A stretch of 64,000 nucleotides of DNA. Origin: Escherichia coli. GTDB lineage: Bacteria; Pseudomonadota; Gammaproteobacteria; Enterobacterales; Enterobacteriaceae. Numbering within the stretch: position 1 is the first letter of the stretch; the number at the start of each line of letters is the position of its first letter. The notes beneath the pieces are model-generated. The model did no database searches, had not been told where the DNA came from, and saw only the letters and a program-made list of their open reading frames with translations. The DNA lies in the NCBI RefSeq assembly GCF_044324875.1, contig NZ_CP172187.1, one strand, 5' to 3'. The position numbers were made by a program, and so were the translations under genes. This document shows positions 35,405-36,585 of the stretch, piece after piece.

Positions 35405-35490
35405 AAGATAACAAGATAACAAGATAACAAGATAACAAGATAACAAGATAACAAGGTGTTATCTTGTTATCTCAAGGTGTTATCTTTGTT
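35405..35490. repeat. Partition centromere-like iteron array (6 direct 8-bp ATAACAAG units plus inverted copies), downstream of parB
   Basis: Tandem GATAACAA units followed by GTGTTATCTTGTTATCT. Confidence 0.55.
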
Positions 35491-35782
35491 TTACTTCTGC
35501 TATCAATCGTGATACCTCTGTTTTTGATAGTGTTTTAAGTGCTTCTACCGCCGCCCTGACAACATCAGAACGATTCACTCTGCCTTTACCTGAAACCATC
35601 TCAGCCGTTATAAGGGCATCAATGTCTTTTAGGTTTTCTTCAAAAAAAGAAATACTCACTGGTTTTGCTTTGCTTACAACCGATGATTTATCTGATGACT
35701 TTTTGGTATTATCAAGGCCAGCCGTGCCACCGTTAATAAATGCTGCCTCGTCACGAGGTGAAGTGTTTGCTCTATTTCTCAC
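35480..35782 (-). CDS. parB: Small partition protein (ParB/ParG-like centromere-binding protein, type Ib)
   Basis: 100 aa, coupled to parA; C-terminal region consistent with RHH-type DNA binding. Confidence 0.5.
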   Translation of the reverse strand: MRNRANTSPRDEAAFINGGTAGLDNTKKSSDKSSVVSKAKPVSISFFEENLKDIDALITAEMVSGKGRVNRSDVVRAAVEALKTLSKTEVSRLIAEVKQR

Positions 35783-36405
35783 AGAATAACCTCTTTCACT
35801 AACGCTTCGATTTCTTGCTGGGCTTTATCATTTTGCGTTTCAAAAATTGTCATTGATTCGGCCCAAGCATCTCGATGTGCTTTACGATCACATACCCGGG
35901 AGTTTGCCAGATGCATTTCAGGGTAATCCTTAAGTACTTCAGCTGCCTCATTGGCTTCATTAACAAACATATTTGTGGGCGTCATGTTTAAAACGAGATA
36001 TCCCCGAACATCCTCATTAAAATCTTTTGCTGCTGTAAAAACGGAGCATGTATGAGGCACAACATCCAGGTCCATCTGAGATGGGCGCAAAGGAGAAATG
36101 AATACATCTGCGGCCATCAATCCACTACGCATTTCTGCGCTATCACGGCCAGCACAGTCTGCAATAACAAAATCATAGGATTTTTCGTGTTCCTTTAACA
36201 TGGCTTTGATGTTACCTGTCGCGCCTGTAACCGGAATATGAGGGAGATCTTCAGGGCGATTGTTGTACCAGGTTAATACTGATTTCTGGTCATCTGCGTC
36301 GACAATAATCACTCTATTGCCTAGTGACATCAGATACGCAGCTATAGATACCGCCAGTGTACTTTTACCTACCCCACCCTTTTGACTACCTAATACTATT
36401 ATCAT
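35779..36405 (-). CDS. parA: ParA-family partition ATPase (type Ib)
   Basis: 208 aa with deviant Walker A GSQKGGVGKST. Confidence 0.85.
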   Translation of the reverse strand: MIIVLGSQKGGVGKSTLAVSIAAYLMSLGNRVIIVDADDQKSVLTWYNNRPEDLPHIPVTGATGNIKAMLKEHEKSYDFVIADCAGRDSAEMRSGLMAADVFISPLRPSQMDLDVVPHTCSVFTAAKDFNEDVRGYLVLNMTPTNMFVNEANEAAEVLKDYPEMHLANSRVCDRKAHRDAWAESMTIFETQNDKAQQEIEALVKEVIL

Positions 36406-36529
36406 TATAGCCTCATATTAAGTTGTTAAGTTAACAACTTAATATTGCCATCTGAACGCGAATCATGCAATTATTTTTGTTATATTAACAACTTAACAAG
36501 TTATTAAGTATTTGATTTATAGATTAATT

Positions 36530-36585
36530 AATATAACAAGATAACAAGATAACAAGATAACAAGATAACAAGATAACAATATTAT
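36530..36585. repeat. Partition centromere-like iteron array upstream of parA (8-bp ATAACAAG units)
   Basis: Six tandem GATAACAA units; palindromic operator-like sequence at 36420-36450. Confidence 0.55.

What the first reader, a model, noticed from the sequence alone, without database searches (positions are those of the whole stretch)
35405..36585. Type Ib ParA/ParB partition cassette with 8-bp iteron arrays on both sides, abutting the resolvase remnant
Tandem ATAACAAG units occur both upstream of parA (36530-36585) and downstream of parB (35405-35490), resembling two-centromere loci such as pB171 par2. The downstream array lies within about 150 bp of the truncated tnpR, suggesting the par module was acquired or rearranged at a transposon breakpoint.
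Basis: partly seen in the sequence, partly recalled or inferred. Interest (0 to 1): 0.35.

Follow-up and report, generated by a model that had tools for sequence, protein, structure and literature searches.

The report
Known R64/pESBL plasmid partition locus
This is the plasmid-segregation cassette already characterised on the IncI1 plasmids R64 and pESBL: a small ParA ATPase, a 100-residue ParB and arrays of the 8-bp ParB-binding site GATAACAA on both sides. It is real and correctly read, but ordinary.

Summary
ATAACAAG occurs 14 times in the window against 1.3 expected. Six tandem copies plus three inverted copies lie downstream of the small ORF, at 35405-35484. About six tandem copies lie upstream of parA, at 36532-36579.

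The two genes are parA (36405..35779, 208 aa) and parB (35782..35480, 100 aa). Both are 100% identical in protein sequence to ParA and ParB of plasmid pESBL-EA11. That locus was characterised experimentally in 2020 (PMC7602700) by Tn-seq, mini-F stabilisation, GFP-ParB foci and gel shifts on the octamer repeats. A 2023 paper (PMC10286972) equates it with parAB of R64 and finds it in 48% of 460 I-complex plasmids. Repeat copy number varies among them.

Structure prediction assigns ParB a ribbon-helix-helix fold, which fits the type Ib class.

The 150 bp between the tnpR remnant and the array is native IncK2 backbone, and the cassette is intact. Homology to pB171 par2 could not be tested. The finding is already known and of low interest.

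The parts
35405..35455 (+). Downstream parS array: 6 perfect direct GATAACAA/ATAACAAG octamers at 8-bp phasing
   Evidence: TRF gives 6.4 copies at 100% matches. Exact motif hits. Scan. The homologous array in pESBL is bound by ParB in EMSA (PMC7602700).
35456..35484 (-). Three octamer units in inverted orientation (35456*, 35464, 35477*; * = 1 mismatch). The last overlaps the parB stop codon (35480-35482). Together with the direct array they form an 18-bp-stem inverted repeat.
   Evidence: The RNA fold of the par-strand transcript gives -30.1 kcal/mol, z = -7.3. The terminator-like scan also hits here.
35480..35782 (-). parB: 100-aa centromere-binding protein with a GTG start that overlaps the parA stop by 4 bp (GTGA). 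Predicted flexible N-terminal tail plus C-terminal ribbon-helix-helix domain.
35779..36405 (-). parA: 208-aa Walker-type partition ATPase with a deviant Walker A motif (KGGVGKS) and no N-terminal DNA-binding domain
   Evidence: 100% identical to pESBL ParA, WP_000587689.1. Best solved relative is ParF of TP228, E = 2.3e-14. Pfam MipZ, AAA_31 and CbiA. NF041546 ParA_partition scores 155.8 bits, below its cutoff of 180.
36415..36445 (.). Perfect 15+15 palindrome (ATATTAAGTTGTTAA-G-TTAACAACTTAATAT) immediately 5' of the parA Shine-Dalgarno sequence. Each arm holds an octamer-like unit (GTTAACAA). Candidate operator and/or 5'-UTR hairpin.
   Evidence: I6. Identical in the Klebsiella and IncX5 variants, whose upstream region otherwise diverges; pESBL has one mismatch. 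RNA fold -19.6 kcal/mol, z = -4.2. Function is inferred, not shown.
36470..36499 (-). Best sigma-70-like promoter match for the par operon (TTGTTA-18-AATAAT, 9 of 12), made largely of degenerate octamer-like units
   Evidence: This is only a consensus match: 5 sites were found against 4.6 expected in shuffles, so the evidence is weak.
36532..36579 (+). Upstream parS array: 6 direct octamers (first and last degenerate), in the same orientation and phasing as the downstream array. It ends 22 bp from the impB stop (36601).
   Evidence: Homology with the Klebsiella variants stops at about 36582, the outer edge of this array.

Best explanation
Window 35405-36582 is an intact copy of the parABS locus of the IncI1 plasmids R64 and pESBL. 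Here it sits on an IncK2/Z-type multiresistance plasmid closely related to p135-2.

Shown in pESBL, for identical proteins:
- ParB binds arrays of the octamer GATAACAA in direct or inverted orientation, forming one complex per repeat.
- Binding needs several adjacent repeats to be stable.
- ParB forms foci on the plasmid.
- The locus stabilises an unstable mini-F plasmid.

Inferred:
- ParB is a ribbon-helix-helix dimer. Its paired beta-strands (KPVSISF) enter the major groove of each octamer.
- Because the units are unspaced at 8 bp, successive dimers wrap the DNA in a helical array, as omega does on its 7-bp heptads.
- The conserved, disordered N-terminal tail (MRNRANTPPRDEAAFINGG) contacts nucleoid-bound ParA-ATP and stimulates its ATPase. 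The plasmid then follows the ParA gradient, as in other type Ib systems.
- ParB bound to the degenerate units that overlap the promoter and the 5'-UTR palindrome autoregulates the operon.
- The inverted repeat at the 3' end also forms a terminator-like hairpin.
For: - ParA and ParB are 100% identical to those of pESBL-EA11. The same RefSeq protein accessions appear in IncK2/Z plasmids.
- PMC7602700 reports Tn-seq, mini-F stabilisation, GFP-ParB foci and EMSA ladders of 7 and 8 complexes on probes with 7 and 8 repeats, with consensus GATAACAA.
- PMC10286972 states that parAB of R64 is 100% conserved in pESBL and is carried by 48% of 460 I-complex plasmids.
- The arrays are far beyond chance.
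- Homology to the ~87%-identical Klebsiella variants runs from array edge to array edge, query 106-1283 = window 35405-36582.
- Both arrays are present in every close relative I examined, with copy number varying: 6-13 direct units downstream and 5-11 tandem units upstream.
- Six of seven loci with ParB at 55-77% identity also have an 8-bp tandem array downstream of parB.
- ParA's closest solved relative is the type Ib ATPase ParF.
Against: - No experiment was done on this particular plasmid. Its array copy numbers (6+3 downstream, 6 upstream) are lower than in pESBL (10+5 downstream, 7 upstream).
- In pESBL, deleting par did not visibly destabilise the plasmid until pnd and oriT were also removed, so the locus's contribution in its native context is partly masked.
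- The promoter call is no better than chance.
- The separate roles of the upstream and downstream arrays are untested; the authors say so.
Confidence: 0.93

Rival explanations
1. Only one of the two arrays is the working centromere. The upstream array, together with the degenerate units and the palindrome, would be mainly an operator for ParB autoregulation. The downstream inverted repeat would be mainly a transcription terminator or mRNA stabiliser.
For: The upstream array lies just beyond the best promoter match, and octamer-like units overlap the -35 box and spacer. Five of the seven distant relatives examined (ParB 55-71% identical) keep a downstream tandem array but have only dispersed or palindromic units upstream. 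The downstream inverted repeat folds at -30.1 kcal/mol and is followed by a U-rich run. In pB171 the upstream site is reported to regulate transcription, as cited in PMC7602700.
Against: In the close relatives both arrays are perfect, in phase, in the same orientation and of similar length. ParB binds direct and inverted repeats with comparable affinity in EMSA. The roles are not mutually exclusive, since omega sites act as both centromere and operator (PMC3074150).
Confidence: 0.25
2. The par module was brought in, or rearranged, by the transposon whose truncated tnpR lies 150 bp away.
For: A resolvase C-terminal remnant (HTH_7 E = 1e-12, plus the last ~30 residues of the catalytic domain) ends at 35255. 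The flank is mosaic, with different plasmids diverging from the window at 35256, 35324 and 35343. In pESBL a Tn3-type terminal repeat abuts the downstream array directly.
Against: Window 35256-35404 is identical to the IncK2 plasmid p4809.66, which has no tnpR there. The parAB-impB-umuD-dinI order is the same in the IncI1 and IncK2/Z plasmids examined. The cassette is complete at both array edges. The junctions are independent insertions or deletions in the flank, not in the module.
Confidence: 0.04
3. The octamer arrays are replication iterons bound by a Rep initiator, or functionless slippage-prone microsatellites.
For: In the Klebsiella plasmids the upstream array lies within ~450 bp of a RepB-family initiator gene. 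Copy number varies between plasmids.
Against: No rep gene adjoins the arrays in the window; impB does. The Klebsiella repB region has its own different repeats, spaced at about 40 bp. ParB binding to the octamers is shown by EMSA. The arrays travel with parAB across IncI1, IncK2/Z, IncFII/RepB-type and IncX5 plasmids.
Confidence: 0.02

Closest known systems
parABS of IncI1 plasmids pESBL-EA11 and R64 (PMC7602700; PMC10286972)
   Same: ParA and ParB are 100% identical in protein sequence. The GATAACAA octamer is the same. Arrays lie on both sides, direct upstream and direct plus inverted downstream. The gene order next to impCAB is the same.
   Different: Copy numbers differ: the window has 6 direct + 3 inverted downstream and 6 upstream, whereas pESBL has 10 + 5 and 7. 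pESBL has some GATGACAA variant units and one mismatch in the 5'-UTR palindrome. The left flank differs: a Tn3-type end abuts the array in pESBL, whereas 150 bp of IncK2 backbone followed by a tnpR remnant lies there in the window. The host replicon is IncK2/Z-type rather than IncI1.
pB171 par2 (type Ib ParA/ParB with parC1 upstream and parC2 downstream)
   Same: A small Walker ParA plus a small ParB, with repeat arrays on both sides of the operon. The pESBL authors draw the same parallel.
   Different: From my own recollection of Ringgaard et al. 2007, which I did not check here, the pB171 repeats are 6-bp units, 17 and 18 copies. Here they are 8-bp units, about 6-9 per side. The pESBL authors state that this ParB and parS have no sequence homology to known ones. 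I could not obtain the pB171 sequence, so homology was not tested.
pSM19035 delta/omega (type Ib; omega is an RHH dimer binding unspaced 7-bp heptads WATCACW)
   Same: The centromere is made of contiguous short unspaced repeats in direct and inverted orientation. One centromere-binding unit binds per repeat. The protein has a disordered N-terminal tail plus an RHH domain. The sites overlap promoters (PMC3074150; EMSA stoichiometry).
   Different: The unit is 8 bp rather than 7 bp. The ParA is 208 aa against the 298-residue delta' chain (2oze), which matches only weakly (E = 7e-4). No sequence similarity to omega was detected. The predicted domain has an extra C-terminal helix.
TP228 ParF/ParG/parH
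   Different: From my recollection, parH is made of tetramer boxes upstream only. ParB shows no sequence-level homology to ParG.

Membership tests
R64/pESBL parABS locus | ParA orthologue (WP_000587689.1) | tested here: met
   208 of 208 residues identical to pESBL-EA11 ParA.
R64/pESBL parABS locus | ParB orthologue (Hp7 / O3K_25817 / WP_001245884.1, 100 aa) | tested here: met
   100 of 100 residues identical.
R64/pESBL parABS locus | GATAACAA octamer arrays upstream of parA and downstream of parB, in direct and inverted orientation | tested here: met
   The consensus is as given in PMC7602700.
R64/pESBL parABS locus | ParB binds the octamers and the locus stabilises a plasmid | not testable with these tools
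   Shown for the identical proteins in pESBL by EMSA, GFP foci and mini-F stabilisation. Not shown for this plasmid's shorter arrays.
Type Ib partition system | Small Walker-type ParA (about 200-230 aa) with deviant Walker A and no N-terminal HTH domain | tested here: met
   208 aa, with the motif GSQKGGVGKS at residues 6-15. Best solved relative is ParF, aligned over residues 6-207. The type Ia ParAs (P1 ParA 3ez2, SopA model) match only weakly and locally.
Type Ib partition system | Small centromere-binding protein unrelated to HTH/CTPase ParB, typically ribbon-helix-helix | tested here: met
Type Ib partition system | Centromere repeats adjacent to the operon | tested here: met
Type Ib partition system | The centromere-binding protein, not ParA, autoregulates the operon, and its N-terminal tail stimulates the ParA ATPase | not testable with these tools
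   Only indirect evidence. The N-terminus is conserved, with R2, N3, R4, E12, F15, I16, G18 and G19 invariant across 25 homologues. Octamer-like units overlap the candidate promoter.
pB171 par2 | Two centromere sites flanking parAB (parC1 upstream, parC2 downstream) | tested here: met
   The architecture matches. This is a resemblance in layout only.
pB171 par2 | Sequence homology of ParA, ParB and the repeats to pB171 par2 | not tested
   No pB171 record is held in the collections, and the primary papers are not held. PMC7602700 states that this ParB and parS have no homology to known ones. I therefore do not file the locus as a par2 member.

The most novel reading that the evidence does not exclude
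The family may recognise a conserved 5-bp core (ATCTT/AAGAT) within the octamer, with the other 3 bp free to drift. That would give two consequences. (a) Plasmids of different Inc types that carry the same GATAACAA centromere and a ParB at least 82% identical (I-complex, the Klebsiella IncFII/RepB-type plasmids, IncX5) would show partition-mediated incompatibility across replicon groups. (b) Distant relatives would have diversified the 3-bp part (CTTAGTAT, CTTACTAT, GTTGTTAT, CTTATTAA, AACATCTT) even though the ParB beta-strand KAKPVS-x-S is invariant. Specificity would then have to be set outside the ribbon, or binding would be promiscuous. One Salmonella locus uses different units upstream and downstream, and one Atlantibacter-type locus has two different arrays in a row.
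Probability: 0.3. Interest if true: 0.35.

Novelty: already known. Interest (0 to 1): 0.08.

Why it matters
There is little here for discovery. The locus is the published, experimentally validated partition system of R64 and pESBL. It is one of the commonest par cassettes on enterobacterial resistance plasmids: 2,223 PLSDB records carry it, 1,287 of them from Klebsiella.

The practical value is for annotation. RefSeq still labels the ParB 'hypothetical protein' and annotates no parS sites. The analysis adds a predicted RHH fold for ParB, which the 2020 authors said had no recognisable DNA-binding motif.

One question remains open, and the authors acknowledge it: whether both arrays act as centromeres or the upstream one is mainly an operator.

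Tried and rejected
- Sequence searches with ParB against Pfam, NCBIfam and PDB, both as a single sequence and as a 25-sequence profile, found nothing significant. Only fold comparison was informative.
- Attempts to fetch pB171 (AB024946, NC_002142) and the primary pB171 papers failed.
- A full-text search for the repeat string GATAACAAGATAACAA returned only an unrelated paper.
- The promoter scan gave no more sites than shuffled sequence, so I treat the promoter position as tentative.
- Foldseek with the linked-dimer model gave only non-significant hits (best E = 0.38). I use them only as consistent with RHH.
- I considered and rejected replication iterons and functionless microsatellites, for the reasons given under rival explanations.
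- I considered that the 36-39-bp element at 35307-35345 is a Tn3-family terminal repeat. One matching site, in an IncI1/B/O plasmid, lies in unannotated intergenic DNA, so its nature stays open.

Full report
**Observation**

Tandem Repeats Finder reports a period-8 array at 35405-35455 (6.4 copies, 100% matches) and another at 36533-36579 (5.9 copies, 100% matches). It also reports a 2-copy unit in the opposite orientation at 35457-35472. The octamer ATAACAAG occurs 14 times in the 64-kb window against 1.34 expected, and none of 100 dinucleotide-preserving shuffles reaches 14. Twelve of the 14 fall in the two arrays.

I scanned for the published consensus GATAACAA allowing one mismatch:
- The downstream site holds 6 direct units (35407-35454) followed by 3 inverted units (35456, 35464, 35477). 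The last inverted unit overlaps the stop codon of the small ORF.
- The upstream site holds 6 direct units (36532-36579), plus isolated degenerate units at 36430 and 36477.

**Genes**

Between the arrays, on the minus strand, lie a 208-aa ORF (36405..35779) and a 100-aa ORF (35782..35480). The GTG start of the second overlaps the TGA stop of the first by 4 bp (sequence), which suggests translational coupling.

The 208-aa protein is a small Walker-type ParA.
- Pfam hits are MipZ, AAA_31 and CbiA.
- Its closest solved relative is the type Ib ATPase ParF of TP228, E = 2.3e-14, aligned over residues 6-207.
- It scores 155.8 bits on NCBIfam ParA_partition, below that model's cutoff of 180.

The 100-aa protein has no significant match in Pfam, NCBIfam or the PDB. 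This holds both for the single sequence and for a 25-sequence profile.

**Identity with a characterised system**

A plasmid BLAST found the 1.35-kb region in 2,223 PLSDB records, 1,235 of them covering at least 80% of it.

A literature search led to PMC7602700 (Genes 2020;11:1207). That paper characterised the par locus of the IncI1 plasmid pESBL from E. coli O104:H4. It reports the following:
- Tn-seq identified a ~1-kb stability region containing O3K_25822 and O3K_25817. The first is ParA once its start is extended to include Walker A. The second is 'Hp7', a 100-aa hypothetical protein.
- The cloned locus stabilised an unstable mini-F plasmid.
- GFP-Hp7 formed foci only when pESBL was present.
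- EMSA showed specific binding to the octamer repeats, direct or inverted, with as many shifted complexes as repeats (7 and 8).
- The consensus is given as GATAACAA.

I fetched pESBL-EA11 (NC_018659) and compared it directly. The window's ParA and ParB are 100% identical in protein sequence to the pESBL proteins.

A second paper, PMC10286972 (PLoS Genet 2023), states that parAB of R64 is 100% conserved in pESBL. It also finds parAB_R64 in 48% of 460 I-complex plasmids.

The finding is therefore a further copy of a published, experimentally validated system.

**Host plasmid and distribution**

The best match over the par region, its left flank and the first 25 kb of the window is p135-2 (NZ_CP080262), an IncK2/Z conjugative multiresistance plasmid from chicken E. 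coli.

The same cassette occurs in other replicon types:
- At about 87% identity in Klebsiella plasmids typed IncFII, where it lies next to a RepB-family initiator gene.
- At about 88% identity in an IncX5 Citrobacter plasmid.

Homology to these diverged variants spans query positions 106-1283, which is window 35405-36582. That is exactly from the outer edge of one array to the outer edge of the other. The arrays therefore mark the boundaries of the mobile functional unit.

All eight close copies I examined carry both arrays in the same orientation and 8-bp phasing. Copy number differs between them: 6-13 direct units downstream and 5-11 tandem units upstream.

**ParB fold**

The pESBL authors stated that the protein has no predicted DNA-binding motif.

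An alignment of 25 homologues (55-89% identical to the window protein) shows three conserved features:
- an N-terminal segment with R2, N3, R4, E12, F15, I16, G18, G19 and A21 invariant;
- an invariant K-A-K-P-V-S-x-S segment;
- an invariant R-x-N-R-S-D motif.

I conclude, with moderate confidence, that ParB is an RHH centromere-binding protein with a flexible tail that engages ParA. This is the canonical type Ib design.

**Mechanism**

Shown for the identical proteins in pESBL:
- sequence-specific, multi-site binding of ParB to octamer arrays;
- focus formation;
- plasmid stabilisation.

Inferred:
- One RHH dimer binds per 8-bp unit, wrapping the DNA helically by analogy with omega on 7-bp heptads (PMC3074150).
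- The N-terminal tail stimulates the ParA ATPase.
- ParB autoregulates the operon.

For regulation, the best promoter match (TTGTTA-18-AATAAT, 36499-36470, minus strand) lies between the upstream array and a perfect 15+15 palindrome at 36415-36445, which abuts the parA Shine-Dalgarno sequence. Octamer-like units overlap the -35 box and the spacer. The promoter scan found no more sites than in shuffled sequence, so this placement is tentative. The palindrome is identical in the Klebsiella and IncX5 variants, although the DNA beyond it diverges strongly. That argues for function, either as an operator or as a 5'-UTR hairpin (-19.6 kcal/mol, z = -4.2).

The downstream inverted repeat would fold in the transcript into an 18-bp stem (-30.1 kcal/mol, z = -7.3) followed by a U-rich run. 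It may therefore double as a terminator.

**The transposon-breakpoint idea**

The resolvase remnant is real. It has HTH_7 at E = 1e-12 plus the last ~30 residues of the catalytic domain, and it ends at 35255.

However, window 35256-35404 is identical to the IncK2 plasmid p4809.66, where it follows a ProQ/FinO-family gene and no tnpR is present. Other plasmids diverge from the window at 35324 (p13KWH46-3) or at about 35343 (many I-complex plasmids). The Klebsiella and IncX5 variants share only from 35405 onward. In pESBL itself a Tn3-type terminal repeat abuts the array directly.

The flank downstream of parB is thus a mosaic of independent insertions and deletions. The cassette and its synteny with impB-umuD-dinI are the normal backbone arrangement. 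Nothing indicates that the module was acquired or rearranged by the transposon.

**Comparison with pB171 par2**

The layout, with arrays on both sides of a type Ib operon, is the same, and the pESBL authors note this too. I could not obtain the pB171 sequence or the primary papers, so homology is untested. The authors report that this ParB and parS have no sequence homology to known ones. I therefore describe the locus as working like par2 and delta/omega, but I do not file it as a member of par2.

**Beyond the published work**

I examined seven loci encoding more distant ParB homologues (55-77% identity; Pantoea, Citrobacter, an Atlantibacter-type protein, Enterobacter, Salmonella). Six have an 8-bp tandem array immediately downstream of parB, but the unit differs between them: CTTAGTAT, CTTGTTAT, GTTGTTAT plus CTTACTAT, CTTATTAA and AACATCTT.
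- Most variants keep an ATCTT core.
- The ParB strand K-A-K-P-V-S-x-S is invariant.
- A perfect upstream tandem array is seen only in the closer relatives. The distant ones have dispersed or palindromic units upstream.

This points to a conserved core with a drifting 3-bp part, and to possible cross-reaction between plasmids of different Inc groups that share GATAACAA. It is a lead only and does not change the verdict.

**Verdict**

The transposon inference is not supported. The system is already known (R64/pESBL parABS) and the interest is low.

Noticed in passing
window 36415-36445: A perfect 15+15 palindrome (ATATTAAGTTGTTAA-G-TTAACAACTTAATAT) lies directly 5' of the parA ribosome-binding site. 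It is identical in the Klebsiella and IncX5 variants although the rest of the upstream region diverges; pESBL has one mismatch. It is a candidate operator or 5'-UTR hairpin. I did not find it discussed in the passages of the pESBL paper that I read.
   Followed up: partly
window 35436-35474 (minus-strand transcript): The junction of the direct and inverted octamers forms an 18-bp-stem hairpin in the par transcript (-30.1 kcal/mol, z = -7.3) followed by a U-rich run. The centromere may therefore double as the operon terminator. The last ParB codons (KQR-stop) are themselves encoded by an octamer-like unit.
   Followed up: partly
L008-L011, L014, L015 (loci of ParB homologues at 55-77% identity): The 8-bp array downstream of parB is kept but its unit differs: CTTAGTAT, GTTGTTAT, CTTACTAT, CTTATTAA, AACATCTT. 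The ParB beta-strand residues are invariant. L015 (Salmonella) uses CTTAGTAT x9 upstream and CTTGTTAT x4 downstream. L010 has two different arrays in a row downstream (ATAACAAC x10, then ATAGTAAG x8).
   Followed up: partly
window 35307-35345: A 36-39-bp element ending in GGGGG (on the minus strand: GGGGGTTCTACGCCGGAACCGCCGAAATTTCCGACAC...) recurs at 95-100% identity in many Klebsiella, E. coli, Providencia, Serratia and Yersinia plasmids. The one matching site I inspected lies in unannotated intergenic DNA. It looks like a transposon terminal inverted repeat, but I could not assign it.
   Followed up: partly
window 35256, 35324, 35343 and 35405; L007 1835-1874: The flank downstream of parB is a hotspot of mosaic junctions. 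Different IncK2/Z and I-complex plasmids diverge from the window at three different points within 150 bp. In pESBL a Tn3-type terminal repeat (…CACTGAGCGTCAGACCCC) is fused directly to the first octamer.
   Followed up: yes
window 31813-35323: Relative to the IncK2/Z plasmid p13KWH46-3, the window carries an extra ~3.5-kb segment. It holds a PTS EIIBC-like transporter ORF (32546..33943, my reading of the ORF translation, not checked against a family library), a GntR/UTRA regulator (34177..34926) and the tnpR remnant. Only 5 PLSDB plasmids, at least four of them from chicken E. coli, share this arrangement over at least 80% of the query.
   Followed up: partly
window 1-25000: This is a multiresistance region (mer operon, tet(A), Tn3-family and Mu-like transposases, ISKpn26), 99% identical to p135-2 and widely shared among E. 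coli plasmids.
   Followed up: no
L003 4540-4690 (Klebsiella plasmid pDD01653-3): In the Klebsiella plasmids the par cassette sits next to a RepB-family initiator gene. The repB region's own repeats (…CAACACACCT…, spaced at about 40 bp) are unrelated to the octamers. RefSeq annotates ParB as 'hypothetical protein' throughout, and no parS sites are annotated.
   Followed up: no
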